DNA of 64,000 nt from Emiliania huxleyi CCMP1516 (GCF_000372725.1 NW_005201421.1:248001-312000), one strand, 5' to 3'. Shown: positions 2,185-32,384, numbered from the stretch's first letter. Translations and numbers: made by a program. The notes: a model not told the origin generated them from the letters alone.

Positions 2185-5100
2185 ATGCTCAACTCCACTG
2201 CCGTGATCACCAACGAGACGGCGCCCTTGCTCAACGACACTTGCGAGGATGGGCTCCTCCTTGCCGGACCGCTCCGCACGCACCGCAACGCCCTGATCTA
2301 CATGGCGGCGTTGCTCTGGACGTTCCTCGGCGTCGCGATCGCAGCCGACGCCTTTATGCTTGGCATCGAAACGATCACGTCGCAGGAGCAGGCAAAGACC
2401 GTGGTCGTCGACGGGAGGAAGCGCGTCTACTCCCTCAAAATCTGGAATGCCACCGTCGCCAACCTCACCCTCATGGCTCTCGGCTCGAGCGCGCCAGAGA
2501 TCCTCCTCTCGCTCATCGAGATTGTCTCTTCGGGCTTCTACTCGGGAGAGCTCGGACCCTCGACCATCGTCGGCTCTGCCGCCTTCAACCTCTTCATCAT
2601 CGCCGCTGTATGCGTCGTCGCCGTCGCGGCACCAAAAAAGGTGGCAGACACGGGCGTTTTCTCCATCACCGCCGCCGCCTCGGTGTTTGCATATGTGTGG
2701 CTCGCCTACATCCTCCTCGTCTCGTCGCCAAACGTCATCGAGGTGTGGGAGGGTGCCGCCACGCTCGCCTTCTTCCCGCTCCTCGTCTGGCTCTCGCATA
2801 GATGCGGAATACGTGTCCCGCCTCCCACCCTCTCCGCCCAGCTGCGCACTATGTATAGGCGCTCCCTCGCCGACGTCGAACCCTTCTCGGACCCTTCTCG
2901 GGCCCTCTTCTAAGGTCCCCTCGGGCCCTCCCACAGGCTCGCCTACCTCGCCGACGTCGGGGCCTTCTCGTGCCCCGACAAGGCGCGGCCGGCGACGCAC
3001 GTGGTGGTCGCCTTCACCCGCGACGGAAAGCCGATCAGGCACCGCAGCTTCGCGCGCGAAGCTGCAACGCAATGGGCGTCTCTCTCCCGAGCCCTGTCGG
3101 AGTCCTCTCGCACAGGCGCGGCGACTTGGCGCGCGAGCTGCAGCGCATGGATCCCGACGCGGCAGACGGGACGAGCGACGCGCAGGGCCTCGCCTCGTAC
3201 CTCGCCTCCTCGCTAGGCACCCTCAGGTCTGAGAAGCACGCTTGAGAGGGATGAGAGTGGTGGTGATACTCGCTCGTTCGGCACCCTCCGGCCACCAGGT
3301 CCATCTCAAAACCCCCCAGCTACTCTGCCATGTGCGTGACATGTCCGTGCCACGCCCTCTCAGGTCGCGGGCCGCGTACCGGGTCGCCACGACGCGAGGG
3401 GCGACGGGAGTGGCAGCGCCGCAGGCGAGGGCGGCAGCGGAACAGGAGGTCGCACCGCCGCCGTCGGCGGCAGTCCTGTCGTTTGCGGTTAGCGGTGCGG
3501 CCTTCTCTGAGGGTGCCAAGGAGGCGAGCCTTGTGGTGGAGCGGTCCGGGGAGGAGCTCGCGAGGGTCTCGTCGAGCGGACTAGCTGGTCAGTGCTGATC
3601 GAGCCACTGCCTCTCATTGGCTCGCCAATAGGAGCTCGACTGGGAGGGGAGCGTCGAGTACGAGTCTCGGGACGGCACCGCGCACGCGGGCCAAGACTAC
3701 ACCGCCGTGTCTGGCCGCCTCTGCTTCGCGCGCGGGCAGCGTTCGGCCGTCCTCGCGGTGCCTCCCTCTCTTCGACGGCAGCCCTTCCCACGACCTTGTC
3801 CACCTTCTCCAGAGCCCTCTCTGCACCCGTCCAGGTGCCTCTGCTCGACGACGAGGTGGCGGAGGAGGACGAAACCTTCTTTGTCGACTTGGCGCCGCCC
3901 GCCACCCCTCCCCCTCCCCGCCTGCCTCTCGCCCTCCCCCTCCCCGCCTGCCTCTCGCCCTCCCCCTCCCCGCCTGCCTCTCGCCCTCCCCCTCACCTCC
4001 TCGAGATCACTTCGCCCTCCCCCCGGTGCTCCCGCCGTGCAGCACCGCCCCTCCGCCGGCGCACGGCTAGGGCGGCGGAGCACGATGGCGGTGACCATCA
4101 TCGACGACGACGGCCCGGGCGAGGTCACCTTCGCCGTCGCGGAGACGCGGGTGCGCGAGTCGCAGCGCGTGGCGGTGCTCGAGGTCGAGCGCAAGCGCGG
4201 CGTGCAGGGCGCCGTCTCCGTCGGCTGGCGCACCGCCGACGGCACCGCCCTCGCCTCGCGCGACTACGTCCCCGGCCGCGGGCGGCTCACCTTCGCGCCG
4301 GGCGTGACGCGCGCCGCGATCGAGGTGGAGATCATCGACGACGGCGCTTACGACCTCGCCGACGAGAGCTTCGCCGTCGTCCTCGACGAGCCGGGCGGCG
4401 GCGCCTCGCTCGGCGAGATCGGCCGCGCGGTGCGGTCGATTGTCGAGGGAGCGACCGCCTTCTCTGAGCCGCCTCTGCACTCCTCCGAACCTCTCCCTGC
4501 TCTAGGTGGTTGTCATCGAGAGCGACGACGAGCGGCGCGCGCTCGTCAAGCAGGTCGCCAGCCTCATGTCCCTCAACGTGGACGCGATGCAGCTCGCCGG
4601 CGCTTCGTGGCGCGAGCAGCTCGCAGAGGCCGTCACCTTCGAGCCGCCCCGCCAGGCCACCACCGCGCGCGCCCTCGACGGACCCCTCCTCGGCGGCGCC
4701 TCTCCGCCCGCCGCCTTGTCGCTCAGCTGCCCGTTCGCGTTTGCCGGCTTCGCGCTGGCCTTGCCGTGGCGCCTCCTCTTCGCGCTCACCCCTCCTCCGC
4801 GCGTGGCCGGCGGCTGGGCTTGTTTCTTCGTCGCGCTGGTCGGCATCGGAGTCATCACCGCGCTGGTCGGCGACCTCGCCGCGCACATGGGTTGCTGCCT
4901 CGGCATGAAGCCCGCCGTCACCGCCATCACCTTTGTCGCGCTCGGCACCTCCCTCCCCGACACCTTCGCATCGCGCACCGCCGCCGTCAAGGAGAGAGTC
5001 GGCGCCTGCTCGACCTGAGTGTCCGTCTCGCCCATATGCCCTCGCGCCCCTGTAGGAGCGGCACGCGGACTCGTCGATCGGCAACATCACCGGCTCCAAC

Positions 5101-5514
5101 TCGGTCAACGTCTTCCTCGGCCTCGGCCTGCCGTGGCTGGCGGCGGCGCTCTTCTGGGCCTCACCGCGAGGCGCCGCGCAGGAGGCGAGCTGGCGCGACC
5201 GCTACCGCGGCGAGGCGTGGTACTCGGAGGCGATGCCCGTCGCCTTTGTAGTGGCCAGCGGCGACCTCGGCTTCTCGGTCGCCGTCTTCACCGTGCTCGC
5301 CCTCGTCTGCCTCGCCGTGCTCGTGGCGCGCCGCGCTACCGTCGGAGGAGAGCTGGGCGGCGGGGCGGCCTCCAAGTACTCGACCGCCACCCTCTTCACG
5401 GCACTCTGGCTGGGGTACATCTGGCTCTCAATCGCAAAGACCGAGGGCGACCCGCGGCTCGCGCGCCTGCTGCAGCAGCTGCCGCCGCAGGCGCGGGCGC
5501 TGCTCGGCGCGTGA
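2185..5514 (+). CDS. NCX: Na+/Ca2+ exchanger (NCX family) with two Calx-beta domains, multi-exon
   Basis: alpha-1 motif WNATVANLTLMALGSSAPEILLS, GPSTIVGSAAFNLF; Calx-beta motifs (DGTAHAGQDY, TADGTALASRDY, IIDDD); alpha-2 motif ITFVALGTSLPDTFAS and ADSSIGNITGSNSVNVFLGLG; introns e.g. 2790-2936, 3039-3115, 3758-3834, 4430-4505. Confidence 0.95.
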
Positions 5515-5870
5515 GGAGGGGTGCGGGAGAGGGCAGGCGCGCACGGGCGGGGGCCGAGTCTCCCGGGAGGCGGGAGGCACACACTCCACACTAGAGCGTG
5601 AGGCACGTTAGGAGGTGTGGTTTAGTAGTTCGTCGCGGGAGTATTTTGTTGTGCACTATGCACTGTATACGTTACTGTGAGTATTGTTTATTGATATTGT
5701 GCGCTCATGTGAGAGAGATTTTAGAAAACTCATCTGCCGGTGTAGTACACACGTATGTCAGCCGTGGCCCGTGGTGCACGGTATCCGACCTTCCACGCCA
5801 AAGCGGCGGGAGAAGAAAGAAAGAAAGGCGCGGCCACAACCCAAGAGCTGGCTGTCACCTGCAATATATC

Positions 5871-5918
5871 TTGGAGCACTTGGAGTGCAGTCAGTAACCT
5901 CACATCCAGGGCCGGGGA
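5871..5918 (-). mobile_element. Dispersed terminal-like repeat GGCCCTGGATGTGAGGTT...CACTCCAAGTGCTCCAAG
   Basis: Reverse complement matches 28201-28252 and 46355-46392. Confidence 0.6.
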
Positions 5919-5979
5919 GCTGAGGAGCGCACCCAGCGGGCCGGATGATCGGTATCGGGCTACGGGCTAGAGAGCCCTG

Positions 5980-6290
5980 ACCCCTAGCTAGGGGGGGTGC
6001 GCATTCGCAGGGCCATAACACGTCTCCGAGGGATGGTTCTGCGCTGCCGGGTACTTGGGGGTTCCCCTTAGCTGCGGAACGCACCCTCTTCCTCGACCGT
6101 GGGGGGGTGCGCGGTCGCAGGGCCATAACACGGGTCTCCGAGGGTTAGCTCTGCGCTCCGGGTTTCCCCCAGCGGCGGAATTTTTCCCTCGCGCTGTGGG
6201 TCCCCCTAGCTGCGGAACGCCCCCTCTACTCGGAGCTAAAGAATACTCTCCGAGGGTTAGCCCCGCGTACCAGGTTTCCCCTTAACTGCA
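5980..6290. repeat. Degenerate ~110-bp tandem repeat
   Basis: Recurring GGGGGGGTGCGC..CGCAGGGCCATAACACG, CTCCGAGGG and CCCCTAGCTGCGGAACGC units. Confidence 0.7.
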
Positions 6291-6366
6291 GGACGAGATC
6301 TGGGCATCTCGCAGGTGTTTTTCTTCGGCCGCCCAACTCTGTCGGCGTCCCCTCGCGAGTTCACGT

Positions 6367-8796
6367 ATGGCCGCTGTGCGGTCGCCTCGTGCCACGCCTG
6401 GCACCAAGCCGCCAACGCCGAGCGGCGGCGGCTGGTTCGACGTGGGCGGCAAGGAGCGTATTGAGCTGGCTTCGCGCAACGAGGCCCTCGGCGAGGAGGT
6501 GCGGCTCAAGGAGGCGCAGCTCCGGATGCTCCGGGTCCTGCAAAAGACATCCGCGCGAGAGGGACGCATTGACCGCTGGCGGCTGCAGACGACGGCGCCG
6601 GTCTTCTCCGCCTGGCGACGCGCGGTCACCGCGTGGCGCGCCGAGCGGCAGCTCGAGGCGGAGCGGGCCGCGAGGGCGGCAGCCGTGTCGGCGGCCGAGG
6701 AGAAGGGAGGGCAGGTGGGGGCACTCGCCGACCGCGTGGCCCGCGTAAAGAGCAACGCGCAGGCCAAGCTCTCCGAGCTCTCCGCCGCCAACCAGCTGCT
6801 CGCCAAGGCGCTGCGAGGACCGCAGCCGCCAGCAGAGGCGGTCCCGCGCCCGACGGCCCGCGCCCGCCCGCCGCGCCTCTGCAGGCGCTCGAGGAGAAGG
6901 ACAAGGCGGCCGTCTCGCTGGAGGCGCGGGTGAAGCACCTGCAGCGCACCGCCGGCGCGCAGGGCGAGCGCGAGGTCGAGCTCTCCCTGAAGCTCGAGCA
7001 GCAGGCCGACGCACTTGCGCAGGGAGAGAGGGAGAGGCAGCGGCTCGAGGCCGCGGCCGCAGCGGCGCGGAGAGAGAGCGACGCGCAGAGGGAGGCCGGG
7101 TCGGCGGCGGTGGCCAACGAGGCGGCGGCGGCGATGGCGCTGCGGACCACGCTGGGCGCGCTGCGTGCCGCCGACTCGGAGCTCCAAGTCGCGAGAGGCG
7201 AGTGGCTGAGCAGGCAGAGGCGGCTGCTGGTGCGGCGCACGGCGCCTCTTCACGGCAGACGGGCTGTGAACAGGCGAGCTCGCCGCGGAGAGAGGGCTGA
7301 GTGTGCGGCTCGCGGCGCGCCGCGGAGGCGAGAGCCGAGGGGCCCGGCGCGTGGTCTCTGAGAGCGCGCCGGTGTGGTTTGTCCCGTAGGCTCGCGTGGA
7401 GGGGCTGGAGGCGGAGGGCGCCAGTCTCGAGGCGGAGGCGCCGAACCTTCCCGGAACCTTCTCGGAGCCTTGCTGCAGGCGGAGGCGGCGTGTCTCAAGG
7501 CGGAGGCGGCGGCGGCGCGCACACTCGCCGTGATCGACGAGGGCCCGCGCAGTGCGACTCCGCGGCGCATGCCGGCCTCGCGGCAGGCGGCGCGCGGGCA
7601 GGCGGGGTCGGCTGGGAGAGGGACGGCACGCAGCATGTCGCTGGGGGGGGCGGCGTCGGGCGGGAGGGGGGAGGGGAGGGGGGAGGCGACCGGCCCCTCC
7701 CCGCCCCTCTCGCCGAGGGGCGGCACTTTGGCTGCGCACACGCCCCTCGGCGGTTGCGGCGGAGGGTGGGGCTTGGGCGACAGCTGGCGGAGCGGGCGAG
7801 ACCGCCGCCGCGAGACGCGCACTTCTTTGACACACTCTGAAGGAGGAGGCGTGTGTGCGCGAGGAGTAGGCAGACGCTGCTCGAGCTCCACCTCGACAAG
7901 TGGCAGCGGGCGCTGCTCGCGACGTGCGTCCCGCGTGTGTGCACCGGTCCCGTCCACGGACACGTCCATGACGCGTCCACGGCACGTCCCCGCAGGTGCT
8001 TCTGGGGGTGGGCGGACCGCGTGGGGTGGCGGAAGCAGCTCGAGGCGCGGCGGGAGAGCGCGCGGAGGGTGCCCCCCCCCCCGACCCTTCTCTGGCCGGC
8101 GTGTGCTCCTCAGGCGGAGCGAGAGCCCGTCGCCGACGCCGAGGCGCGCGTGGAGGCGGTCTGGAGACCGCGCGAGGAGCGGCAGGTGGCGCACGTGGCG
8201 GCGCTCGCCGCGTCGCTGAGGGAGAGCGAGGCGGGGGCGGCAGAGCTGTCTGCGCACGCGAGTGAGCTTGCCGAGCGGCTGAGGGTCGAGACGGAGGCGC
8301 GGGAGAGCCTGGCGTCGCAGCTGTCTGCGACGGCGGCGGTGCGCACCCCTGTGGTGTGTGTGTGTGTGTGNNNNNNNNNNNNNNNNNNNNNNNNNNNNNN
8401 NNNNNNNNNNNNNNNNNNNNNNNNNNNNNNNNNNNNNNNNNNNNNNNNNNNNNNNNNNNNNNNNNNNNNNCCATGAAGACCCTGGCGACCCTCCCCCGCC
8501 CCCCCCACACACACACACCCCCACACACACCCCCCCACCCCCCGCCCCCTCTCCAGGCTCTCGCGGAGGATGAGGCGAGGACGCTCGCCTTGCTCGACCG
8601 CCAGCGAGCCGCCCGCGCCGCCATGCTCGGCAAGATGTCGGGCGGCGCCTCGTCGGCTGCCTCCTCGACGCCGCCCTCGCCCGGCGCCCTCGCCCCCGCG
8701 CCGCTCAGCTCGCCGTTCGGGCCCGCAGCGTCGCCCGCGGTCGCCGTGCCGCCTCCAGCCTCGCCGGCGGGCCAAGGGGACTCGCCGGCGACGTAG
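6367..8796 (+). CDS. Coiled-coil protein, multi-exon, spans an N gap
   Basis: Ala/Glu/Arg heptad-rich exons joined by GC/GT-AG introns (6808-6884, 7411-7478 and others); stop at 8796. Confidence 0.6.
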
Positions 8797-11342: not shown

Positions 11343-11599
11343 TGGTCGCAAAAGGAGCTGGGCCGGCGAGCTGTCTCGGAAGCGCTTGCCAATCTAGGTC
11401 AAGCAAGGAAGAAAAGCATCAGTGACGGCGTGCCAACTACGGACGTACGGACACATGTGTAAGAGCGCGCACGAGTGGGTGTGCGAGCAATATCGAAAGA
11501 CAGTGAGGCCAGGATCGCACACGGCAGGGGTGGCGGGACGGTTGTGGAGCGAAGTGGCAGTAGCCAGCCTCAAGCATCGATGGGATAATTAACAAGAGC

Positions 11600-12981: not shown

Positions 12982-13652
12982 TCGGGTATGCGTGCTCACA
13001 CAGGCTGTCGTAGACGCCCCCACCCCACAGGTACGCGCGAGGCTGCAAGAAGAAAAAGAACCTCACCATCTGGTGGCGTGGGCGAGGTCGGCGAGGCCGG
13101 GCTCGCTCACACCACCACAAGCCCTTGCAAACTAGGGCTGCGAGGAGGAAAGACGTCCCCCCACTATGTCCCCTCTGTAGAGCTGTTTCGAGTGCGAGTG
13201 CGAGCTCCGGTGGCGGCCGCGAGAGAGAGCGCCGCCCGACGAACGCAAGGAGAGCGACAGGTTTCATCTTCTCGTCTCTTTCCCGCCTGGGCGGGGCGGC
13301 GGGGTGCGGGTGTGGGGTGCGGTGTGAGTGTGCTTGCCAGAGAGTCCAGCCTAGAGAGAGCATGTTCTCCCCGTGTGCAATATGTCCCCTTCCAGTCTCT
13401 GCTGTGGCTGGGTGTGATGGCTCAGATGACGGTGCCGTGGCAGTCTCTGCCCGGCATGTCCTCGCGAGCCCCTCCCAGTCCAAGAGACTACTGGGAAAGT
13501 CCTGAGACAAGGGACGAGGTAGCGACTGCGACTTCACAGGCCTACAGCACAGCTGTGTGTGTATAGAATCCCAGTCAGTCCTCCTACGCCGCTTCGGGAA
13601 TGTAGGATTCCTAGCCGGGGAAAAAAAGAAAGAAGGCCCGCCAGATGATTGC

Positions 13653-14696
13653 ATGAGCGGCGCCAGCCCAGCCCTGCTGCCCGGGCTGGCAGTGGGCGAC
13701 CTGGGCTCGCTGCGCGCCGTCCTCTCCGGGTGGGGGACGCGCGGCACGTCGCTCACGGCCCAGCTCGACGCGCGGCTCGACACCGAGAAGCAAGACACGC
13801 TGCTCACCTGGGCCGCTCGGCACGGGCAGGCCGAGGCGGTGCGGCTGCTGCTCGAGGGCGGCGCGAGCGTCGGGGCAACGAATGGCGGCGGCGGATCTGC
13901 GCTGCTCATCGCGTGCCAGGATGGCCACCTTGAGTGCGTCCGGCTGTTACTCGAGGCCAGCGCGGCGATCAACCAAGCCAATGAGGACGGCGTCACGCCG
14001 CTGTTCAAGGCGTGCTGGCAGGGCCACCTCGAGATCGTCCGGCTGCTCCTCGAGGCTGGCGCGGCGAAGGACCAAGCCAGGGACAATGGCGCCACGCCGC
14101 TGCTCGTCGCGTGCTCGGAGGGCCACCTCAACATCGTCCGGCTGCTCCTCGAAGCTGGCGCGGCGGTCGGCCAAGCCATGAACGGCGGCTTCACGCCGCT
14201 GATCGTCGCGTGCCACTTCGGCCACGTCGAGGTCGCCAAGCTCCTCTCCTCCTACGGCGCCTCCCGCGCCGCAGTGCCGCCCTTTGGCACGCCCGAGGAG
14301 ATTGCGAACCGCCGCGGCCACGCCGACCTCGCCGCCTGGCTGGTCGCCAGCCGCGGCTGGACGCCGCTCGCGCACCTTGAGAGCCTCACCGCCGCCCGCG
14401 CTCTCTCCCTGCTGCGCAGCGGCGCAAGCCTGCACGAGGGCGAGCCGACGCCGCTGCAGCGCGCCGCGGGCGGCGAGGGCGAGGCGGCGGCGCTGATCCG
14501 GCGGGCGGCGGCGCCGTGGTCGCCGGCAAGCCACTCGCTCTTCCCCGCGGCGGCGCGCGAGTACGCGGTAACGGTCATGCGCATCGGCTACCAGATCGCG
14601 CTCTCTCCGCCCGACGACGCCGAGGCGCACCCGGACTGGAGCGCGCTGTCCGACGTGTGGCGCGAGCACGTGCTGCCGCACGCGGTGGCGCGCTGA
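13653..14696 (+). CDS. Ankyrin-repeat protein, intronless
   Basis: About five ankyrin repeats (GVTPLFKACWQGHLEIVRLLLEAGA etc.) and a C-terminal PWSPASHSLFP segment. Confidence 0.9.
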   Translation: MSGASPALLPGLAVGDLGSLRAVLSGWGTRGTSLTAQLDARLDTEKQDTLLTWAARHGQAEAVRLLLEGGASVGATNGGGGSALLIACQDGHLECVRLLLEASAAINQANEDGVTPLFKACWQGHLEIVRLLLEAGAAKDQARDNGATPLLVACSEGHLNIVRLLLEAGAAVGQAMNGGFTPLIVACHFGHVEVAKLLSSYGASRAAVPPFGTPEEIANRRGHADLAAWLVASRGWTPLAHLESLTAARALSLLRSGASLHEGEPTPLQRAAGGEGEAAALIRRAAAPWSPASHSLFPAAAREYAVTVMRIGYQIALSPPDDAEAHPDWSALSDVWREHVLPHAVAR

Positions 14697-14789
14697 GGCC
14701 GAGTGAGGACGCGAGTGCCACGCGGCGGCGCTGGTCCGGCGGGCGGCGGAGGCGGAGGCGGCGGAGGCGGAGGGGCAGGCAGTGTCGGA

Positions 14790-20061: not shown

Positions 20062-20063
<2 letters not shown>

Positions 20064-20136: not shown

Positions 20137-20138
<2 letters not shown>

Positions 20139-20517: not shown

Positions 20518-23159
20518 TCAGCTGCAGCGCCACTCCCGGACGCTCTCGCCGCGCTCGTCGTCAAAGCTCTCGACGAGGCAAGCCTCCTCCTCGTCGTCGG
20601 CGTCCTCCACGGCGAGGTCGGCCTGGATCTCGGCTTGCACGGCGCGCACCTTGGTCGGGTCCCCCAAGTACCACCCCGCCCGAAGCGGCGGCTCGGCCCA
20701 CGGCGTGGCGACGGGCGTCAGCGCCGAATCGAGCTGGTAGACGAGCGGGACGGCGTACGGCACGTCGACGAGCGGGATCTGCTCCTGCGCGGCGAGGGAG
20801 GGGGCGGCAGAGGGGGTCGGGCTTCTCGCCTCGCGCAAGGCCCGCGCTGGGGCTCGCGCCTGGGTCATCCCCTCGATCTCCATCACCAGCCCGCGCAGCA
20901 CATTCTCCGACGCCACGACCAGCACCGTCGGGACCTCGTACTCGCCCCCGCCCGCCTCCGCGTCGGCGAGCGCCGCGTCCACCGCCGCACGCCTGAGAGG
21001 CCGAGTCACACTGGGCCTGTCAGGGACGTGTCGCTTGGACATGCCCCCCCGAACCTCCCCCGCCGCGCGCATGCTCTCGCCCAGCTCGCCGTACAGAAAG
21101 GGCCTCAGCCGCTGCTGGCAGTCCTCGAGCGACTCGGAGCGCGGGGGGAAGTCGCCGCCGCGGTAGAGGTCGTACCGCCGGTCGATCGTCTCGACCAGAG
21201 TCGCGTCGCTCCAGGGCGGAGGCCGGTCGCTGAAGCCGCGCCGCCAGCGCTGCACCTGCTTCAGCCCGTGCGCCTTGACGCAATCGGCCTGCGGGACATG
21301 CCAGGGACGTGTCACGGGCGTGTCCAGGAGACGCAAAGCAGCGCCTCGACGCCGCCCGCCTTGACTCGGCCCTGCAGCTCGCCGTAGTTTCGCTCGTTGA
21401 GCCTCCACGTGTTTTGCACCGGCGTCCACTGCAGGTCCATCTCGTCGAGGGCGAGCCACGCCTGGAGGGAGGGGGGCAGGGGGGGGGTCGGGGACAGGGA
21501 AGGGGGGGGGGCCTCCCCCCTCCGGGGAGGCCCTCGGGCAGGAGGCCGTCGGGCAGGGCAGCGGCGGTCGGGGTGGGGAGGCAGCTTCCTGCTCCTCGAG
21601 CCGCTCGGACTCCTGGAAGAAGTATGCCGGCGGCGTCTGCCGCACCGTGTACCCCTCGCCCTCGATCATCGAGAGCCGCTGCCGCGCCTCGGGCGCGGTG
21701 AAGGCGGTCTTGATCTCGCCGTCCTCGGTGGGCGCAGTCACCTTCAGGGAAGGGTCGAAGGAAGTGTCTCGGAAGGGTCCGTCCACCTCGCCGCCCTCTC
21801 GGCGGTCGCTCTCGCACCATCGAGTACGCGATGTCCTGCAGCACCTGCTGCCGCATCGCCTGCTGCGCCGCCCGCACGCGCGACTCGTCCACCTAGTCGT
21901 CACCCCGCCACACACCCCCGTGAGTGGCGCAGCTCTCCTCGCCGCTTCGCGCTCGCGAGGACAGCGCACACCAGGAAGCGGCCGTGCCGCGCCGCCCCCT
22001 CCCGCTCGCCCCACACGCCGTGCTCCCTCGCGTGGCGCAGCCCCGCCACGGGCGCCTCCGCGCCCGCGCCGTCCGCGTCAAACTCGTACAGCAGCGGCGT
22101 CGCCGTCGGCAGGTCGACGTGGTACACGTCCTCGGGCGCGAGGCCGTCTAGGTACGCGACGAGGGCGCGAAGCGTGTTTCCGTGCGTCACGACGAGGACC
22201 GTCCTCCCCTCCTGCAGCGCCGGCGCGATGGTGCCCTCCCACAGGCCGGCCACGCGCCGGGAGACGGCGGAGAGGCACTCGCGCGACGGCACCCGCGCGG
22301 CGTCGTACCTCGTCAAGGTCGGGGTTGGGGTTGGGTGTAGGGTCGTGGGGTTGGGGATAGGGTCGGGGTTGGGGTTGGGTCTAGGGTCGTGGGGTTGGGG
22401 TCAGGGTTGGGGATCATCTGGGTCTGGGTCTTTTGGTTCAGGGTGTAGGGTAGGGCTGGGGCTCGACGCGGCGGCGCCGCACCTCCTGTCGGTGGCGATG
22501 GCGCGCTGGATCGCCGAGTCGGCGGCTATCTCGGGAGGAGGGTCCTCAAAGTTGCGCCGCCACGCCATCACCTGATCGACGCCCCACTTTTGGGCGCACG
22601 AGACCTTGTTCTCGCCCGTCAGCAGGCCGGCGTGCTGCTCGTTGAGCTCGAGGTGCTTCCGCACCGGCAGCCAGCACTGGTTGAGCGTCGAGAGCATCAG
22701 CACCGCCGACCGGATGGCTCTCCGCATCAGCGAGGTGTGCACCTCGTCAATCTCGAGCCCGGCGGCCGCGAGCAGACGGCCAGCCTCGCGCGCCTCGAGG
22801 ATGCCCTGCTCCGTCAGGTCGACGTCCACCCAGCCGGTGAAACGGTTCGCCAGGTTCCACTCGCTCTGTCCGTGGCGGACCAGCACCAGCCTCGCGTGCG
22901 GCGCCTCCTCCTCCGCGGCCGCCCTCGCCGCCGTCTCCTTCCGTGCCGACGCCGCCTCGCGCGCAGCGGCGGCCTCGGCCAGCGCGATTTGGAGCTCTCT
23001 CTCGGCGGCCGCCAAGGCTGCGTCCGCATCGCCCGCCTCCTCGCTCAGCAGCACAGCGCCGCCAGGGCGCCGTGCCGCCGCAGCACGAGCTCCTGTTCTT
23101 CCGCCTGGCCGGACAGGCGACGACAGCGCCAGTGCCGTCACGGTGAGGAGGCTAAGCAT
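20518..23159 (-). CDS. gpmA: Cofactor-dependent phosphoglycerate mutase with a second degenerate PGM domain; N-terminal targeting peptide; multi-exon
   Basis: [41 protein letters not shown]; second domain [32 protein letters not shown]. Confidence 0.9.
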
Positions 23160-23565: not shown

Positions 23566-25516
23566 ATGCTGGCGCCCGCGCCACAGAAGGCCAGCTCGCT
23601 GGAGTCTCGACCGCCTGTGTCAAAGAAGCTCGCATCGAGAGCCCTGATCGCTCTCGGCGTGCTGCTGCTCGTCGCAGCCGTCTCACACCTCCACGAGCTC
23701 GCCATCACTCTGGCGCACCCGCTCGAGCAGTCGGCCGCACGCCGGCCGGCGAACCAGCGCGACCGACGTGGGCAGCGGGCCGCCGCCGCCGCCACTGCCA
23801 GCGCCGCCGAATCCACCGCCGCCTCGCAGACTCCTGGCTCGGACGCTGCCTTGGGTGCGAGGCAGTCGGCCGCTTCGCCAGGCTCAGCGGCGGCCGCCCA
23901 AGCTCCAGCGTCAAACTCCTCCGCAGCCACAGGGAGGAGTCAGCCCGCGGCGGCCGCCGCCGCCGCGTCGCCGCCGCCTCCGGCTTGCGGCGCCGAGCGG
24001 CGGCCGTACCACGTGCTGCTGACCGCCGCGTCGGGCACGTACCAGGAGTGGCAGACGCGGATCGCATACCACTACTACCGCCAGCTCAAGGCGGCGCAGC
24101 CGTGCAGCGACCTCGGCGGCGTCGCGCGGCCACGTCCGCTGCCAGGCGGAGCCTTCCCGGAAGCGTCTCGGAACCTTCCTGCAGGCGGCTTCACGCGGCT
24201 GCTGTCCACGCCGGACGGGCGGCCGGACGGGCTGATGGGCGAGATCCCGACGGTGCTGACCAAGCAGCTGGGCGCGGGGCGGTGCGACGAGTGCTCGCAC
24301 GGCTTTGTGGTGACGAGCGGCGGTGGAGGAGCTGAACTCGGACCCTCGGACCCTTCCGAGAAGCTTCTCGGAGCCGTGCCCGTGTAGGTGATGAACCGGC
24401 CGTGGTCGCTCCGGCAGTACTTCGCCTCCAAGGAGGCGGCCTCCCTCGCCGAGGACTACCTCTTCGTGATCGAGACAGACCACCTGCTGCTGCGGCCGCC
24501 CCGCAACCGCGCGACCGAGGCGTCGCCGGTGGCGTTCGGCTTCTACTACATGACGTACAAGTACGACGCGCGCAAGCTCGGGCCGGTGATCCGGCGGTGG
24601 CACGACCCGGACGACGTCGACCCCGTCGGCCCGTCCCCGCTGATTGTGCACAAGGTGCGCTAGCCCCGGCGCGCCCGTTGCAGGCGACACGTCCGCGACA
24701 CGTCCGCGACACAGCCCGCGGCGTCTGCCCCAGGCGCAGCTGCGAGGCCTGATCGAACCGTGGTGGAGGCGAGCGGTAGCCGAGAGGTCGCAGAGAGGGG
24801 CCGAGAGCGGCGGCTGAGCGAGCCGTGGTGAAGGCGCCGCCCGGAGCCTTCTCGGAACCTTCCTGCGCAGGCTCTGCCTCGAGCTCAAGCGGGACCGCGA
24901 GGCGGACCAGGCGCTCGGGTGGGTGCTCGAGATGTGGGCGTACACCCTCGCCGCGGCGCGCACGGGCGTGCGGCACCAGGCGCACCTAGACTTTCCTCGC
25001 CCCTAGCCCTCTGGCCCTGACCCCATACTTCACTCTTCACTCTGACCTTCACTCTGACCTTGAGAAGCTTGACCCGAAAGCCATGGCCCTGGCGCCAGCC
25101 TTGGGCCAAGCACTAGCGCCCCCCCGATGCGTCCAGGTGCACAAGACCTTCCAGGCGGAGCCGGGCGGCGCGGGCATCTACAACCTGGACGACCACGACA
25201 TCTACCACTACACCTTTGACCTCGACCAGAGGGCGCGCCGCCTCCCTGGCCCGAGGGGGCGGCCCCCAGCCCGCGTACACATCTCGCTAGCCCCGGCCAG
25301 ATCAACAACCCGCCCCCCGGCCTCAACCCCTCTCTCGCTACCCCGTCATCGCAGGCCCAGGACTTCAGCTGGTCCAAGCGCCACTTCATGAGCCGCTACC
25401 CGCCACGACTGCCGGAGCCGCCACGGAGCGCAAAGCCGTCGACGCTGACCTTCATCAAGATGATGAACGGCGCGATCGACGCCTTTGGGGACCGGTGGGG
25501 GGTCGCCCGGGGATGA
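23566..25516 (+). CDS. Hydroxyproline O-arabinosyltransferase-like glycosyltransferase, multi-exon
   Basis: Type II TM anchor; YHVLLTAASGTYQEWQTRIAYHYY, GGFTRLL, VMNRPWS, ETDH, GPSP, GWVLEMWAY motifs of plant HPAT. Confidence 0.88.
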
Positions 25517-25839
25517 GAGCACGAGGCCGGCGGATCCGGCGGGTCCGCGTCCGGTCGCACCGCTGTCTCCCGCGCAGCCCACTGCGCACTGTGGCACTGC
25601 CACTGGCCACTGCCCAGGGCCAGGTGTGTTAGATAGCGGACGTGGATCAAGATTCTCTCGGGCATGTCTTTTTTCGCGAGACAACGCCGCCCACATGAGT
25701 CCATGTGACAAGTGAGTTCAAGTGATGGACATGGCACACATGCTGCATCATGCAGACATGCACAACACACATCTCACCAAACCGCCATCTGCAGCTTCAT
25801 TCGAGCTGAGACCGGATCACAATCACATGCATCATGGTT

Positions 25840-25932
25840 CCCCACCCGTCACCCATGCAACCCACCCGTCACCCCATGCAACCGCCACCCGCCACCCATG
25901 CAACCGCCACCCTCAATTCCCCATGCAACCAA
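25840..25932. repeat. Short tandem repeat CACCC(G)TCACCCCATGCAAC
   Basis: About four degenerate ~20-bp units. Confidence 0.7.
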
Positions 25933-26122
25933 TGAACCCCGAAGCTTGCGACGGCGCAAGCTGCAGCCGCGCTCTCCCTCGCCCGCCCGCCGCACGCGCC
26001 CTCACGCACTCAGCACCGCGCCCGTGGACGGCGTGCGAGTGACCGAGCGCACACCACGCCCGCCTACACACAAACCAAGTCCCCTCAGAAGGCGCAAGCG
26101 GCACGGCGCGGCAGAGCAAGGC

Positions 26123-28014
26123 CTACTCGCCGCATCCGTCCGACTCGCCCGACGAGCTCACAGAGTCGGTGTCGCCTAGAGGCTCAAGAGGCACGGCTTG
26201 CCCACTCGCCCTCGCGCCACGGTGCCGCACCGCGAGAGCGAGGTGCGAGCCATCCGCTGTGCGGTCCCCCTCGCCCGCGCCCTTGCGACCCGCGGCCCGC
26301 TGCGCCAGGCCGCGGGCGAGGAGCCGGCCCAAGTCTGCGATGGCCCGGCGCTGCGCCGCCGGAGCGACGCACAGCCACCCGTGCACGGTGAACATGCCGC
26401 GGCTCAGCTCCACCTCGAGCGGCGAATCGAGCCCGGCCTGCGCCCCGCCGTGCCGGAGCAGGTGCTCTTGCACGCGGCGGGGGTTGCAGACGGTGTCGGC
26501 CGCGGAGAGGTGCACGGCGGTCGGCGAAGGCAGCGACGCGGGGTGGAGCCAGTGCTGCGACCACCAAAACTCGCGCCGCAAGCAGTTCTGTACGGTCGGG
26601 TCGGAGGCGACGGCGACCCGCTGCAGCCAGTGGAACCAGGTTGCTGGGCGGAGGGGGGCGACCTGCGGCGGAGGAGGCGAGGCGTGGGCGTGAGAGAAGC
26701 TACACGGAGTTGGAGGCGGCTGGTGTCGGAGCCGGGCTCGCTCTAGGGGAGGGAGGCGCGCGCCTCGTACAAGAAGTTGTGCAGCACGTCCCTCTCGTGC
26801 AGCAGGAAGCAGATCGGGTCCGCGAAGAGCGACGCAGCGACCAAGCCGGGCGCGCGAGTCGCGACAGCGGCGTGATAGCCTAACATGACACACCCACACG
26901 GTGAGGAGAGCGCGGGCCGTGCCGCCGCCGTTCCTCGGAGCTGCGGAGGACCCGTCCCAAGCGAGTGCGACATGAACGCGGCGCTCGGCGCCCTCCCGTT
27001 CAGCGCGTGCCGGCGCACCATCACCTCGACGGCACCGACGAGCTCGGGCATCCGCATCGCCCTCGCGACGCAGCGGGAGGTTGGAAGCCGGTCGAGAGCG
27101 CCTGCGAGGCGGACGCGGACGAGTGAGACGGAGCCGCCTCCGCGCCTGGCGTGGCGGGCGGCGGCGCACCGTGCGGCAGGAGCGGCAGCAGCACCGGCCC
27201 CTCCCACCGAGAGGCCAGCTGCAGCAGCAGCAGCGGGTAAGGCAGCAGCCCGCCGATGCCGTGAAGGAAGACGAGCGGCGCGCTGGTGGCGCCGCCGCCG
27301 CGCCGGTCGGGCCGGTGGAGGTAGCGCAGCCTCCCCACGGAGCGCGAGCTGAAGCCGAGCAGCTGCAACATCCGCCGGATGGCGCCGTGCGCTGCGAAGC
27401 AGCAGAGGTAGACGGCCTGGCAAGGAGGAGGGAGGAGGGTGTGGCGCGCTGCTGCTGGGCGGAGTGGGACGAGGGCATGCGCGCGATCACACCAGAGGCC
27501 GGTGGCAGCGTCCGAGCGGCTCGCGGGTGTATGTCATCGCCACCAGCCGCTCCGCCCGGCCGGCAGGCAGTGGCCCAAGCACCACCTCGATCTGGTTCAT
27601 CACTCGGTCGACGGTGGAGGTCTGCTTTGGCTTCCGCTCGCCCGCGTCGCCGTAGAGGGTCCACGCGACAAATTCGCGGATGTTTCCGTAGCGAGGCTCC
27701 TGCCACGGCGAGGCAGGCTGCTCGAGAAACCAGCCGTGCAGAAATAACTTGAGGCCGTCGGCGTCTTCCTCGGCAAGGATCCGGTCGTAGAAGGCGAGCA
27801 CCGCGGCGGTATCGGCGCGCTCGTGCGTGTTGTGTGGTGCGCTCGACCGCCACTCTCGCCACGAGGCCGTGTGAAGGTAGAAGAGAGCCTCGAGCAGCGG
27901 AGCGGTGCACAAATAGAGCAGCGCCTGGACGAGCCAGGGCGCAGCCTCGAACGCGACGAAGAGCTTGTCGAGCAAGGGCCGGAGGCGGCCGGCGCGGCGC
28001 CGGGAGGGAGCCAT
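26123..28014 (-). CDS. Alpha/beta hydrolase fold protein, multi-exon
   Basis: PLVFLHGIGG oxyanion motif, SHSLG nucleophile elbow, ADPICFLL, late HG. Confidence 0.8.
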
Positions 28015-28200
28015 TGAGGCTGGGGCGTGGCGCCGAGGCGGCCTCGAGGAAGCCCGTGGCGGTCCTTCGCCCTTCGCCTTCCTTCCCGATGTTTAATTAA
28101 AAGAAATCGTCGGGACTCCCAATCCGCCCGTAGCCCTGTCCTTCTCCCACCCCTCGTTTGGCGTGTCCGTTGTATTTATTTATTTATTAGCGCTTCCTAA

Positions 28201-28259
28201 TCCCCGGCCCTGGGTGTGAGGTTGCCGACTGCGCACTCCAAGTGCTCCAAGTGCCCAAG
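28201..28259 (+). mobile_element. Terminal-like repeat, same family as 5871 and 46355
   Basis: CCCCGGCCCTGGGTGTGAGGTTGCCGACTGCGCACTCCAAGTGCTCCAAG. Confidence 0.6.
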
Positions 28260-28314
28260 CTGTTAGGCCTCGTAAAAGAGAGTGTCGTCTTGAGGGAGAG
28301 TTGACTTGAAGGGT

Positions 28315-28438
28315 AGACGCCCGAGGGTGGGCGACGGCTAACAGCTAACACCACACTTCTCCCCTAAAATCCCTGTGTGGTGGCGGCGTACCGTCCTCCC
28401 ATCCCTCCCTTGGGTTGTCTGTTTTCTTTCTTTCTTTC
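28315..28438 (+). mobile_element. Copy of the (TTTC)n-tailed dispersed repeat
   Basis: GGGTGGGCGACGGCTA...AAATCCCTGTGTGGTGGCGGCG...CTTGGGTTGTCTGTTTTCTTTC matches 59165-59280 and the reverse complement of 38603-38790. Confidence 0.8.
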
Positions 28439-28818
28439 TGAAGGGTGTTGATCCTTTACCCCTACGAGTGTCGTTGCACGTTGCTCGTGTCGTTGGGGCG
28501 GGGGATGGGGGCCGGGGCGGCCGGGGCGCCGGGGGTTGCGGTGGGGCCGCCACCCGCACCCCGCACACCCCTCACCCGCGCACCCCTGGTCGAGGCTCGA
28601 CGCTCGAGCGCAGAGGCAACAACGAACAGGCCTGGTCGGCTACCGTCCAGGTTTTCTCAGAGCTGCGGGGCGCGGTTTAACTCTCACGCTTGCTCACACA
28701 CATCAGACGAGCAAGCTCCGGCGCCGACGCGCCGGGCTTGTGCACATTGCCTCACACGGGTCTCTCACACAACCGCAGCGTGCCGCGATGACGCGGCGGG
28801 CGGGGCCGACACTCTCCG

Positions 28819-29556
28819 CTAGGACGGCCCTCCCTCTCCGCTCGCGCCGCCCGGCCCGGCTAGCCTGGCCCGCGCCTCGAGCGCCGGCGACACAAACAGC
28901 ACCGCCCGGTCTCTCGCCCCGCACGCGCGGAAATGGTAGACCAGGCTGCCTCCGCCCAGGCCTCCGGGCGGCTCGGTCAGGTCGCCGCGGAGCACCAGCG
29001 CGTCGCCCGCGTCGAGGCAGATCTCCGGCTCCGGCGGCGGCGCCTGGGCGGTCGAGCCGCAGGCCTCGACTGCGCCGTCCACCGAGTCGAAAAAGGCGAC
29101 GTGCGACGACGACGAGTACGGCGTCGGCGCCACGATGGTGGCGGGGTGGCCTCGCAGGGTGAGCGTCACCGGCTCGCGCGGGAGCACCACGACGCAGCTT
29201 CGCTTCGGCTCCTCCAAGAGGTGGGCATAGGCATAGTGGTCGTGCGCGTGCGTGAAGCCGGCGCCCCACTCCCCAACCGGGTCGCAGACGGCGTCGCAGC
29301 GGAGGAGCGCGCAGGCGAGCGAAGCGGCGAAGCGACACTCTCGCGCCGTCGTCGCAAACTCCTCAAGGGTGCACGGGCAGCCGAGGCGCTGCAGCGGTGC
29401 CGACGGCGCCGGGATGACTGAGCGCAAGGCGACCGCGCCGCTGCGGCCAAACTTCGCCGAGACGTCGCCAGAGACGCGGAAGGAGACGCGCTGAGCCTCG
29501 ATGACTGAGGTGGTGGACGCCTGGACCGACAGGCCGACAAGGAGCGCGGCGAGCAT
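28819..29556 (-). CDS. Signal-peptide protein of unknown function, possible cupin/2OG-oxygenase-like fold
   Basis: MLAALLVGLSVQA; HAHDH, GDALVLRGD...VYHF...RAVLF. Confidence 0.5.
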   Translation of the reverse strand: MLAALLVGLSVQASTTSVIEAQRVSFRVSGDVSAKFGRSGAVALRSVIPAPSAPLQRLGCPCTLEEFATTARECRFAASLACALLRCDAVCDPVGEWGAGFTHAHDHYAYAHLLEEPKRSCVVVLPREPVTLTLRGHPATIVAPTPYSSSSHVAFFDSVDGAVEACGSTAQAPPPEPEICLDAGDALVLRGDLTEPPGGLGGGSLVYHFRACGARDRAVLFVSPALEARARLAGPGGASGEGGPS

Positions 29557-29726
29557 CTGACTTATCGAAGCTTGGAAGGGTTGAGACGCTCGCCTCGGAA
29601 TGACACCGCCTGAGCACCGGGCGATTCTGGTTCGAATAAGTGGTGAGGAGCCATCTTTTGACTCCTCCTGAAAAAACAAAAGGCGGAGTGCCGCAGTGCC
29701 CCCTCCCCATACCCGCACCCACCAAT

Positions 29727-29757
<31 letters not shown>

Positions 29758-30022
29758 ACGTCTTCGGTCCCCGCGGGAAGCCCCGCGCATAGGACAACAA
29801 CGTCTGTCCCACACACACACAGACGCGCACATACATCATGCTCGGGCACACCCCACAGTGTAGTGGTTGCTCTCCGCACCCACCAATTTTCCAATTTTAA
29901 CCTTGCGGAGCAGCTTGGCGAACGATTCGTGTCCAGCAGATGGGCAGCAAAAGAATTCACGTTCCGACCTCGGCGACGTTCGCCGACGTTCAGGTCCTCC
30001 GTCGAGGGCCTTCGACGCGGAT

Positions 30023-32384
30023 ATGTTGCCCCTTCTCGGCGCGGCGGCCGGCGTTATCCACGTCTCGTCGCCGGCGTCGCGCGTCGCGCCGCCGCCCGTG
30101 CGGAGCGCCGTCCGGCTCGCGATCGTTGAGACGCCACCGCCAGCGGGCTTTGTGTGGGCAGACCTCGACGACGGCGCTGCTGCCACTCCGGCTGCCTCCG
30201 CACCGGCTGCCTCCGCACCGGCTGCCTCCGCACCGGCTGCCTCCGCACCGGCTGCCTCCGCACCGGCTGCCTCCGCACCGGCTGCCTCCGCGCCCGCCTC
30301 GGCGGCTGATTCCGCGCCCGCCTCGATCTCGCCCATCGGCACGCCCTTCTCCGTCGGGCCTCCGGGTCCGACCTGGAGCGGGCCCACGGGCACCTCGTTC
30401 CTTCCCGAGGAGACGGTTGTGCGCGCCGAGGACGGCAACCCGATCGAGAAGGCCAAGCTGGCCAAGGACGCGACGGCCGCCTTCAACGACGTCTACACCT
30501 TCGCCGCTGCCGTGCGCGCGGGCGAGATGGACTGGGAGGACGTCGAGAAGATGGACATGAACACGCGGCTCAAGTGGGTCGGGCTGGTGCACCGCGACAA
30601 GCGGACGCCCGGCCGCTTCATGATGCGGCTGCGGCTGCCCAACGGGGTGACGAACGCCGACTCGTTCCGCTTCTACGCGGACAGCGTCGAGCCGCACGGG
30701 CCCGACCTCGGCGTGATCGACATCACGACGCGGCAAAACATCCAGCTGCGCGGTGTGCAGCTCGAGCAGGCGGACGAGATCATCGACGGCCTGCACGCGC
30801 GCGGGCAGACGTCCTTCCACTCGGCGCTCGACAACGTGCGCAACATGGTCGGCTCGCCGCTCGCGGGCATCGACTGCCTCGAGATGGTGGGACACGCGCC
30901 GCTCCTGCCGCGTCCTTCCATCAACTGTCAATGAATGACCAGCGAACTCGCTCATAGGTGGACACGCGCCCGTTTTGCGAGGCGCTCAACGACCTGATCA
31001 CGCTCAACCAGGAGACGGGCGAGCGGGGCAACCCGGTCTGGAGCAACATGCCCCGCAAGTTCAACGTCGCCGTCTCGGGCAGCAGGGACGACTTTGCGCA
31101 CACGCACATCAACGACATCGGCTTCCAGCCCTGCGTCCACGCCACGAGCGGCGAGGTCGGCTTCAACATCGTGCTGGGCGGCTACATGTCGACCAAGCGG
31201 GTCGCCGAGTCGGTCGACATGGACCTGTGGATGCCGGCCGACGTGGCCACGGCCGTCGAGCTGACGACGGCGATTCTGCGCGTCTTCCGCGACGAGGGCG
31301 ACCGCAAGGACCGGCAGAAGGGGCGGCTCATGTGGCTCGTCGAGAGCTACGGCGAGGTGGCCGAGGTCGACGGCCACCCGCGCTGCCACCCGGCGTACCG
31401 CCAAAAGATCATCGACGAGATGCGCTCGTACGGGCGCGGGCTCGAGGCGAAGTGCGACGTGCAGCAGCCGCGGCCGACGGAGCCATTCGAGCGGGCGGCG
31501 GCGCCCGGCACCGCCTACCTCGGCGTGCACCCGCAGCCGCAGGAGGGGCTCAAGCGCGTGGGCATCCACGTGCCCGTCGGCCGGCTGTCGGTGGCAGAGG
31601 CGCGCGCCATCGCCGACTTGGCCGACAAGTACGTGCCCGATGGCGAGATCCGGCTGACGGTCGAGCAGAACGTGATCCTGCCAAACGTCAAGGAGGAGGA
31701 CGTGCCCGCCCTCCTCGCCGAGCCGGCCCTGCACGGCGACTCGCGGCTGCGCGTCTCTCCGGGCAACATCGTCGGCAACCTGGTGAGCTGCACCGGCGCG
31801 CAGTTCTGCGGGCTCGCGATGATCGAGACGAAGAACAACGCCGAGGCGATCGCCAAGGAGGTGCAGCAGCGCGTCGACGTCTCTCGCGACGTGCGCATCC
31901 ACTGGACGGGCTGCCCGAACTCGTGCGGCCAGGTCTATCTCCCGATATCTCCCCGCATCTCCCCACATTTTTTCACTGGACGGGCTGCCCGAACTCGTGC
32001 GGCCAGGTGCAGGCCGCCGACATCGGCCTGATGGGCGGGCCGGCCAAGAAGGCCGACCCGGAGACGGGCAAGCTCAAGGCGGTGCCGGGCGTCAAGGTCT
32101 TCCTCGGCGGCACCATCGGCGAGCACGGCGAGCTGCAGCTCGAGGCGGAGCCCGAGGGCATCCCGATCGAGGACCTCGTCCCGCACCTCGTCGAGACGGT
32201 GGTGGAGCGCTTCGGCGGCGAGGTCAGGCCCGAGTTTGCGGGCGAGCACGACGCTTGGCGAGAGGAGCAGGCGAGGGTCAAGGCGGAGGCGGCCGCGGCC
32301 GCGGCGGCCAAGGCGGCCAAGAAGGCGGCGGCCGCCGCCGCCAAGAAGGCGGAGGCGGAGGCGGCGGCGGCGGCGGCGGCCTAG
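30023..32384 (+). CDS. nirA: Ferredoxin-nitrite reductase, plastid-targeted; introns 30887-30957 and 31933-32006
   Basis: FMMRLRLPNG, DITTRQNIQLRG, DNVRN, MPRKFNVAV, siroheme/4Fe-4S cysteines SCTGAQFCG and HWTGCPNSCGQ|VQAADIG. Confidence 0.96.

What the first reader, a model, noticed from the sequence alone, without database searches (positions are those of the whole stretch)
2790..32008. 'Exon-echo' introns: introns open with a degenerate copy of the next exon's first 15-40 nt
Seen in five unrelated genes (intron start vs next exon start). NCX 3039 gcaccgcagcttcgcgcgcgaagctgcaacgcaatgg vs 3116 gcgcggcgacttggcgcgcgagctgcagcgcatgg; 3758 gtgcctccctctcttcgacggcag vs 3835 gtgcctctgctcgacgacgag. 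Coiled-coil gene 7411 gcggagggcgccagtctcgaggcggaggcgcc vs 7479 gcggaggcggcgtgtctcaaggcggaggcggc; 6808 gcgctgcgagga vs 6885 gcgctcgagga. HPAT 24116 gcggcgtcgcgcggccacgtcc vs 24185 gcggcttcacgcggctgctgtcc; 24310 gtgacgagcggcggtgg vs 24388 gtgatgaaccggccgtgg; 24980 gcgcacctagactttcc vs 25137 gtgcacaagaccttcc. NiR 30887 gtgggacacgcgccgct vs 30958 gtggacacgcgcccgt. PGM (minus) 22482 gtgcggcgccgccgcg vs 22308 gtacgacgccgcgcg. Many are 68-78 nt long. Inference: introns are born as a long target-site duplication plus a short filler ending in AG, with the donor supplied by the duplicated exon. That would explain the many GC donors and differs from TIR-type Introner elements. I do not recall this being described.
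Basis: partly seen in the sequence, partly recalled or inferred. Interest (0 to 1): 0.9.

Follow-up and report, generated by a model that had tools for sequence, protein, structure and literature searches.

The report
Algal introns echo the next exon
In this marine alga (Emiliania huxleyi or a very close relative) about half of the introns examined begin with a worn copy of the start of the next exon, likely a birthmark left when a short repeat was inserted at a staggered DNA break, which would make the origin of many of its introns directly readable.

Summary
Confirmed. All nine quoted pairs are exact. I fixed 22 introns without using the echo: 12 from spliced proteins, 10 by homology. New here: the donor dinucleotide equals the exon's first two bases in 18 of 22, including two GA donors. 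Mismatches ignore codon position and run AT to GC. Fillers fall into shared, sense-only 11-mer families or telomere-like (CCCTAA)n. Three of 5 introns in two other species' contigs echo too; in one the copy runs straight into telomeric repeats. All six HPAT introns are absent from three intronless genomic orthologues. Best reading: insertion with a long (11-35 nt) target-site duplication, donor co-opted, branch point and acceptor region from the filler. The geometry is known (Daphnia 4-12 bp; Introners 3-9 bp; one 5-copy E. huxleyi family with 10-bp repeats); the length, prevalence and filler were not found in print. The enzyme is inferred. There was no genome-wide test, no reads and no empty allele. 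The scan's notes held no earlier report of this.

The parts
2790..2936 (+). NCX intron 1, GC-AG, weak echo, 11-mer family A filler
   Evidence: gapless homologue alignment; echo top 8% of local null; filler
3039..3115 (+). NCX intron 2, GC-AG, strong 35-nt echo (78%)
   Evidence: (loose region)
3227..3363 (+). NCX intron 3, GT-AG, no echo; 5-nt match to upstream exon end
3551..3631 (+). NCX intron 4, inferred GA-AG, next exon starts GA; intermediate echo
   Evidence: GA donor gives the homologue spacing; the in-frame GT would add 5 residues
3758..3834 (+). NCX intron 5, GT-AG, 19-nt echo
3892..4042 (+). NCX intron 6, GC-AG, short echo, 26-nt tandem filler
4430..4505 (+). NCX intron 7, GT-AG, intermediate echo (not cited by reader)
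   Evidence: (loose region)
4992..5055 (+). NCX intron 8, inferred GA-AG, next exon starts GA; echo not significant
   Evidence: GA donor aligns without a gap to 17 of 17 homologues
6808..6884 (+). coiled-coil gene intron, GC-AG, 11-nt echo; junction unconfirmed
7411..7478 (+). coiled-coil gene intron, GC-AG, 33-nt echo (82%) followed directly by family A filler; junction unconfirmed
20785..20859 (-). PGM intron (PGM7), GC-AG, weak echo
   Evidence: spliced protein P0148
20993..21070 (-). PGM intron (PGM6), GC-AG, 15-nt echo (87%), family B filler; upstream exon ends AT
21289..21359 (-). PGM intron (PGM5), GC-AG, 19-nt echo, family B filler
21742..21817 (-). PGM intron (PGM3), GT-AG, gapped 29-nt echo, family A filler
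21893..21971 (-). PGM intron (PGM2), GT-AG, echo not significant under the log-odds score
22309..22482 (-). PGM intron 1, GT-AG, 18-nt echo then degenerate telomere-like C-strand repeats
24116..24184 (+). HPAT intron 1, GC-AG, 34-nt echo then family A filler
   Evidence: spliced protein P0142
24310..24387 (+). HPAT intron 2, GT-AG, 18-nt echo, family A filler
24655..24733 (+). HPAT intron 3, GT-AG, weak echo, family B filler
24769..24870 (+). HPAT intron 4, GC-AG, no echo, family A filler
24980..25136 (+). HPAT intron 5, GC-AG, 16-nt echo, weakly telomere-like filler
25233..25354 (+). HPAT intron 6, GC-AG, no significant echo
   Evidence: one residue differs from the spliced protein
30887..30957 (+). 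nitrite reductase intron 1, GT-AG, 13 of 14 echo with one inserted G
31933..32006 (+). nitrite reductase intron 2: mirror case, a perfect 35-nt duplication (33 nt of upstream exon + GT) at the intron's 3' end, 10-mer repeat filler

Best explanation
These introns begin with a decayed copy of the next exon's first 11-35 bases and continue in short tandem-repeat filler; they were likely born as insertions at staggered breaks or nick pairs in exons, whose repair would duplicate the stretch between the cuts and place templated repeats (telomerase-type in some, shared 11-mer families in others) between the two copies. Only events in which the duplicate starts at or just after a donor-like site (G|GT, G|GC, G|GA) and the filler lies next to the acceptor would be spliced cleanly and survive. 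That would explain the 5' position of the copy, the many GC and some GA donors and the sense-only filler; the C-strand of the telomere repeat is a tandem array of CTAAC, the branch-point consensus (recalled). After fixation the intronic copy would decay free of codon constraint with an AT-to-GC bias, and its first bases would drift toward the donor consensus. Shown: echo, donor match, filler families and strand, divergence pattern, absence of six introns in three genomic orthologues. Inferred: birth at a break, the enzyme, the selection filter.
For: Echo peaks at offset 0 on both donor and acceptor scans. Donor = exon start in 18 of 22, p=2e-5, both GA donors precede GA-starting exons. Upstream exon ends in AG in only 10 of 22 but in G in 21 of 22, and at HPAT2 and PGM2 the last residue is a conserved V/I or L whose codons cannot end in AG, so the acceptor came with the insert. 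Mismatches by codon position 15/90, 18/87, 16/85; A/T sites changed 20 of 59 vs G/C sites 24 of 155, p=0.004. Filler pairs above the 99% shuffle line: 12 of 276 (2.4 expected), antisense 0. Telomere-like fillers score on the C-strand only. In L146 (minus, 612-468) a 14 of 15 echo runs directly into telomeric repeats, in register. L146/L148: 3 of 5 introns exceed their null maximum, p<5e-6. HPAT introns absent from L125, L128 and L129-131 in the same clade. Precedents: staggered-break introns in Daphnia; telomeric insertions with target duplication at mammalian breaks; pervasive interstitial TTAGGG in the coccolithophore Calcidiscus.
Against: No presence/absence polymorphism: the one conspecific allele (L127) has all six introns. 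5 of 21 introns have no echo, and a clear telomere-like filler is in only 1-2 of 22 window introns. The source of the 11-mer families is unknown and they could have spread after birth. The +5 G gain (10 vs 3) and the third-position excess at G/C sites (14/67 vs 10/88) are not significant (p=0.09, 0.12). The orthologue scan kept the best 80 of 126 loci, which favours intronless genes, and those lineages may have lost introns. Blind scans and an ad hoc gene finder found no further signal. 11-35 nt is long for end-joining duplications (Daphnia 4-12 bp).
Confidence: 0.6

Rival explanations
1. A short mobile acceptor cassette (SINE-like RNA, or the 5'-truncated 3' end of an excised intron) is copied into genes by a non-LTR retrotransposon's target-primed reverse transcription, which makes variable long duplications; i.e. 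a retro-Introner that carries its 3' splice site.
For: Family A fillers are alike up to the acceptor in unrelated genes, with the core 21-35 nt before it in 5 of 6 introns; non-LTR Introners exist, and one in Pavlovales co-opts the 5' site; variable duplication length fits target-primed insertion (recalled).
Against: At least three unrelated filler types plus telomeric ones; no poly(A) tail or element body seen; of the filler-motif matches listed, those in annotated genes are intronic and sense, and the three near 40.4-40.6 kb were not resolved.
Confidence: 0.15
2. Plain tandem duplication of 65-80 nt of exon around AG|GY (Rogers model), with the 3' half later overwritten by repeat expansion.
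For: NiR2 and the short upstream matches (p=0.012) show duplications spanning the junction; many introns are 64-81 nt; mechanism shown in vivo.
Against: 12 of 22 upstream exons do not end in AG; no 3' mirror signal once NiR2 is removed (p=0.11); echo and filler meet abruptly in L146.
Confidence: 0.1
3. Old introns whose 5' ends were overwritten by spliced cDNA or mRNA-templated repair (aborted intron loss).
For: Exon 1 plus echo equals the mRNA junction sequence; donor matching the exon start is also predicted.
Against: Positions are not shared with three genomic orthologues or with paralogues; conversion should also leave 3' mirrors where exon 1 ends in AG, seen in 1 of 10.
Confidence: 0.07
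4. The resemblance is kept by selection for a splicing function (a factor or RNA reading donor and next exon alike).
For: Similar degree of decay (67-92%) in many introns and in more than one species.
Against: Changes are GC-biased, codon-blind and include indels; window vs L127 has 4 substitutions in 150 nt of intron starts against 6 in 1344 exon nt, so no sign of constraint; no Rfam RNA in the window.
Confidence: 0.04
5. Chance similarity in 70% GC sequence plus a shared splice consensus, or template-switch artefacts in cDNA.
For: Single-intron p-values are often modest; five introns show nothing.
Against: Permutation and local-offset nulls keep composition and consensus and are exceeded; junctions use GT/GC/GA-AG, remove stops or frameshifts and match distant homologues.
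Confidence: 0.02

Closest known systems
Intron gain by repair of staggered double-strand breaks in Daphnia pulex (Li et al. 2014, PMC4202315; passages read; reviewed in PMC3443670, passages)
   Same: Insert flanked by a direct repeat of the adjacent exon's terminal bases; new introns at lineage-specific sites.
   Different: Daphnia repeats are 4-12 bp (33 cases among 90 new introns) and the inserts AT-rich. Here copies are 11-35 nt, nearly always at the 5' end, still visible in about half of fixed introns, and the filler is shared repeat families.
Introners that co-opt the 5' splice site from the target-site duplication (Symbiodinium; Gozashti 2022, PMC9860276, passages; Gozashti 2025, PMC12130899, passages and supplementary file 8)
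   Same: Same geometry: carry 3', co-opt 5'. File 8 lists an E. huxleyi family of 5 copies, about 70 nt, with '10bp terminal direct repeats', co-opt 5' carry 3'.
   Different: Duplications there are 3-9 bp, often with terminal inverted repeats and end-to-end similar copies; only 3 small E. huxleyi families (5, 6 and 45 copies) were called. Here up to half of each intron is locus-specific, which a whole-intron similarity search would likely miss.
Tandem genomic duplication model (Rogers; Hellsten), as reviewed in PMC3443670 (passages)
   Same: Exon sequence duplicated; splice sites taken from the copies; fits NiR2 except for its filler.
   Different: Needs AG|GT inside the duplicate and no foreign filler; 12 of 22 upstream exons lack AG.
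Short interstitial telomeric sequences inserted at breaks (Nergadze 2007, PMC2246262; passages)
   Same: Telomeric repeats inserted at a break, in register with flanking bases, some with target duplication.
   Different: Duplication in only 6 of 130 rodent and 4 of 25 primate loci; the passages read do not describe them as becoming introns.

Membership tests
Introner (TIR/MITE type) | terminal inverted repeats | tested here: inconclusive
   None visible in the 22 printed introns; no formal inverted-repeat search was run.
Introner (TIR/MITE type) | short fixed-length duplication (3-9 bp) | tested here: not met
   11-35 nt, variable.
Introner (any) | end-to-end similarity among introns at unrelated sites | tested here: not met
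   Only the 3' fillers are shared (12 of 276 pairs); 5' parts are locus-specific.
Introner (any) | autonomous partner or copies outside introns | not testable with these tools
   No genome held.
Staggered-break (DSBR) intron gain | direct repeat of adjacent exon terminus at the opposite intron end | tested here: met
Staggered-break (DSBR) intron gain | intron position absent from relatives | tested here: met
   6 of 6 HPAT positions absent from three genomic orthologue sequences; biased sample; one gene only.
Staggered-break (DSBR) intron gain | empty allele in the species or a sister species | tested here: inconclusive
   One conspecific allele (L127) has all six introns; no reads available.
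Tandem genomic duplication (Rogers model) | AG|GY inside the duplicate, intron made only of exon copy | tested here: not met
   Upstream exon ends AG in 10 of 22; no 3' mirror apart from NiR2; foreign filler present.
Telomerase-mediated insertion at breaks | telomeric repeats at the junction, in register with flanking bases | tested here: inconclusive
   Clear in L146 612-468; telomere-like filler in 3 of 5 foreign and 1-2 of 22 window introns; register not tested on a set.
non-LTR retrotransposon (TPRT) insertion | poly(A) or repeat tail of a known element, endonuclease target motif | not tested
   No element library for eukaryotic repeats among the tools.

The most novel reading that the evidence does not exclude
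Haptophyte algae have a general, element-free intron factory: staggered breaks are healed with telomerase-type repeat addition, whose C-strand is a ready-made array of branch points, and the long duplication lends the donor. This pathway made most introns of Emiliania and of other intron-rich haptophytes independently, set their odd GC/GA donor spectrum, and left a datable clock in each intron.
Probability: 0.3. Interest if true: 0.88.

Novelty: new variant of a known kind. Interest (0 to 1): 0.68.

Why it matters
How introns arise is a long-standing open question, because most introns have lost any trace of origin (e.g. the negative result in a mite, 10.1101/051292, whole text read). Here the trace survives in about half of the introns tested, so each can in principle be dated against its own exon and the mechanism tested genome-wide with public data. 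It would give a mutational reason for the unusual GC and GA donors, offer a non-transposon route to mass intron gain (against the view that only Introners explain bursts) and link interstitial telomeric repeats in coccolithophores to introns. In practice the echo looks like coding sequence, and the reference models of this HPAT gene read into it at up to three of six donors (P0123, P0144, P0145 vs spliced P0142).

Tried and rejected
No whole genome was held and no sequencing reads could be laid, so junctions rest on spliced proteins and homology. A filler pattern gave 3 hits in viral contigs, none in an intron-like context, and 120 in prokaryote genomes, of which the 80 listed titles are prokaryotic. 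A blind acceptor-anchored echo scan showed no enrichment of YAG over control trinucleotides in the window, 19 other loci or 12 bacterial loci: too many candidates, no power. An ad hoc gene finder recovered its training introns but made many false calls; after filters it kept 3 and 4, then 4 and 6 introns with partly misplaced donors and no echo signal (p=0.25-0.65); these are null results. The NCX search returned no conspecific protein. The representative-protein search for the coiled-coil gene never ran, so its two junctions stay unconfirmed. Atlas gave no useful taxon for L146. No Rfam match. The HPAT tree is the quick version only. Homopolymer-type insertion bias (an error-prone polymerase idea) was not supported: 2 of 10 inserted bases. 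Literature: ten searches found no description of long 5' exon copies or telomeric intron fillers in haptophytes; the library holds only open-licence papers. Read et al. 2013 was not held; its remarks on GC donors and 10-11 bp repeats are recalled only, and its supplement, bioRxiv supplements and files 13-14 of PMC12130899 were not seen. One search opened an unrelated paper. Kao 2024, Skeffington 2023 and Rogozin 2012 were seen as passages only and do not mention the echo in them.


Full report
Source. The window is 60-73% GC over most of its length. An exon of the HPAT gene is 99% identical to a named protein of Emiliania huxleyi CCMP1516, so the DNA is E. huxleyi or a very close relative. No whole genome was held and no reads could be laid.

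Junctions fixed without the echo. Spliced proteins from short contigs (inferred transcript assemblies: P0142, 1.1 kb; P0148, 2.4 kb, with an MMETSP member) define six HPAT and six PGM introns; 11 match exactly across the junction and HPAT6 differs by one residue. Eight NCX introns were placed against 17 homologues: six in well aligned regions, two (3039, 4430) in loose ones. Two need a GA donor: 4992 aligns without a gap to all 17, and 3551 gives the homologue spacing. Two nitrite reductase introns follow from colinearity with solved structures. That gives 22 introns: 10 GT, 10 GC and 2 GA donors (position table).

The echo is real. The nine quoted pairs are exact. With a composition-weighted score, the first two bases skipped and the same exon at offsets 12-60 as null, the signal peaks at offset 0 on both sides (6.3 vs 1.65 bits, p<5e-6; 14 uncited p=0.001). 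It is uneven: 11 of 21 are in the top 5% of their own null, 5 intermediate, 5 blank. The 12 best copies (of 23 scored) span 11-35 nt, one weakly to 43, at 67-92%.

What the anatomy adds. The donor dinucleotide equals the first two bases of the next exon in 18 of 22 (GT/GT 9, GC/GC 7, GA/GA 2; p=2e-5). The upstream exon ends in G in 21 of 22 but in AG in only 10. At HPAT2 and PGM2 the last residue is V/I or L in homologues, so the acceptor AG was not copied from the exon. Where the exon does end in AG the match extends slightly further than chance (37 vs 31 bases over 12 introns including three foreign ones, p=0.012), but there is no general 3' mirror (p=0.11 without NiR2). NiR2 is the exception: a perfect 35-nt duplication, 33 nt of it at the intron's 3' end; it may be very young or an assembly artefact. 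Mismatches are spread evenly over codon positions (15/90, 18/87, 16/85), insertions in the intron copy outnumber deletions 10 to 3 bases, and A>G and T>C lead; A/T sites changed in 20 of 59 and G/C sites in 24 of 155 (p=0.004). This fits a non-coding copy ageing under GC bias; these counts come from alignments chosen for a high score. A G at +5 is gained in 10 and lost in 3 (p=0.09), a hint of donor tuning.

The filler. The 3' parts of unrelated introns resemble each other (12 of 276 pairs above the 99% shuffle line, 2.4 expected, none antisense): an 11-mer family A in six introns, an 11-mer family B in three, and a further pair. Tandem Repeats Finder sees these as 11-base units. PGM1 has degenerate telomere-like repeats on the C-strand, HPAT5 weakly; the shuffle used is liberal for C-rich DNA. 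TTAGGG is the telomere repeat in this group.

Other species and age. A scan with the HPAT alignment kept 80 of 126 loci. L127 is a conspecific allele with all six introns and the same echoes. None of the other 79 shows an insertion at the six positions, but many are transcripts; the informative ones in the same clade (support 97, quick tree) are L125 (8.5 kb), L128 (7.5 kb) and L129-131 (one protein, contigs 38-75 kb), all intronless. The ranking favours intronless genes, so loss is not excluded. Two contigs of other species, L146 and L148 (taxon not established; haptophyte is my inference), hold five complete introns found by homology or by their filler; I had seen their echoes by eye before testing. 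Three exceed their null maximum (set p<5e-6), one is weak, one blank. In L146 612-468 (minus) a 14 of 15 copy runs directly into telomeric repeats; three of the five have such filler. Predicted introns in L141 and L161 have ordinary donors and no echo, so the trait is not universal.

Mechanism. An insertion with a target-site duplication reads exon 1, copy, filler, copy, rest. Removing one copy plus the filler restores the mRNA exactly if the donor lies at the start of the first copy and the acceptor at the filler's end, or both a few bases in. Events with the sites deep in the duplicate would put exon sequence before the acceptor and likely splice badly, which would explain why long 3' mirrors are rare. 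I take staggered-break repair with templated repeat filler as most likely (0.6). Retrotransposition of a short acceptor cassette gives the same anatomy (0.15). Pure tandem duplication (0.1), cDNA overwriting of old introns (0.07), selection for mimicry (0.04) and chance (0.02) fit less well. The break, the enzyme and the filter are inferred, not shown.

Comparison. Daphnia introns carry 4-12 bp repeats of the adjacent exon. Introners with 3-9 bp duplications can co-opt the donor from the duplicate, and a supplementary table lists one 5-copy E. huxleyi family with 10-bp terminal direct repeats and that geometry. Telomeric insertions with occasional target duplication are known at mammalian breaks. 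Ten searches of an open-licence library found no report of long 5' exon copies in a large share of a genome's introns, of donors dictated by the exon start, or of telomeric fillers in introns. The scan's own notes gave one unrelated finding and three empty answers. Verdict: real; a new variant of a known kind of intron gain, with a sharp genome-wide test at hand.

Noticed in passing
window 21461-21588 (minus, PGM): About 89 codons of the spliced protein P0148 (residues 380-468) have no match in the window; the stretch is G-run rich and looks like an assembly collapse or a deletion.
   Followed up: partly
window 3551 and 4992: Two likely GA-AG introns in the NCX gene, supported by homologue spacing, not by transcripts.
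   Followed up: partly
window 25355-25357: Three spliced proteins read G just after HPAT intron 6 where the window, L127 and the reference models give A; unexplained, possibly a strain difference.
   Followed up: partly
P0123, P0144, P0145: Reference gene models extend exons into the intron start at up to three donors, retain an intron or trim the exon before intron 5, compared with spliced P0142.
   Followed up: partly
window 7924/7996 and 8045/8114 (+); about 50570/50495 and 50476/50388 (-); about 26950/26880 and 26763/26661 (-): Further probable introns with echoes seen by eye; junctions unconfirmed, not counted.
   Followed up: no
window about 34317-34760 and 40929-41370: Two near-identical copies of a roughly 430-nt segment, seen by eye.
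   Followed up: no
window about 39420-39950 (+): ORF with a D-H-x-x-P...G-G...N motif recalled as HNH-endonuclease-like, in a repeat-rich region.
   Followed up: no
window about 28330-28445, 38600-38780, 48820-48865, 59170-59360: A dispersed intergenic element with (CTTT)n runs recurs at least four times, on both strands, seen by eye.
   Followed up: no
window 40400-40620 (minus): Family B filler motifs ending in an acceptor-like site outside any gene I annotated; either an unannotated intron or a non-genic copy, which would matter for the mechanism.
   Followed up: no
L161 936-1079 (+); L141 689-565 (-): Predicted introns with ordinary GTRAG donors and no echo in other species.
   Followed up: partly
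window 13650-14700 (+), 62000-63780 (-), 54020-54980: Apparent ankyrin-repeat genes (99-nt period at 13900-14213) and a long Pro/Gly-rich tandem array; labels by eye.
   Followed up: no
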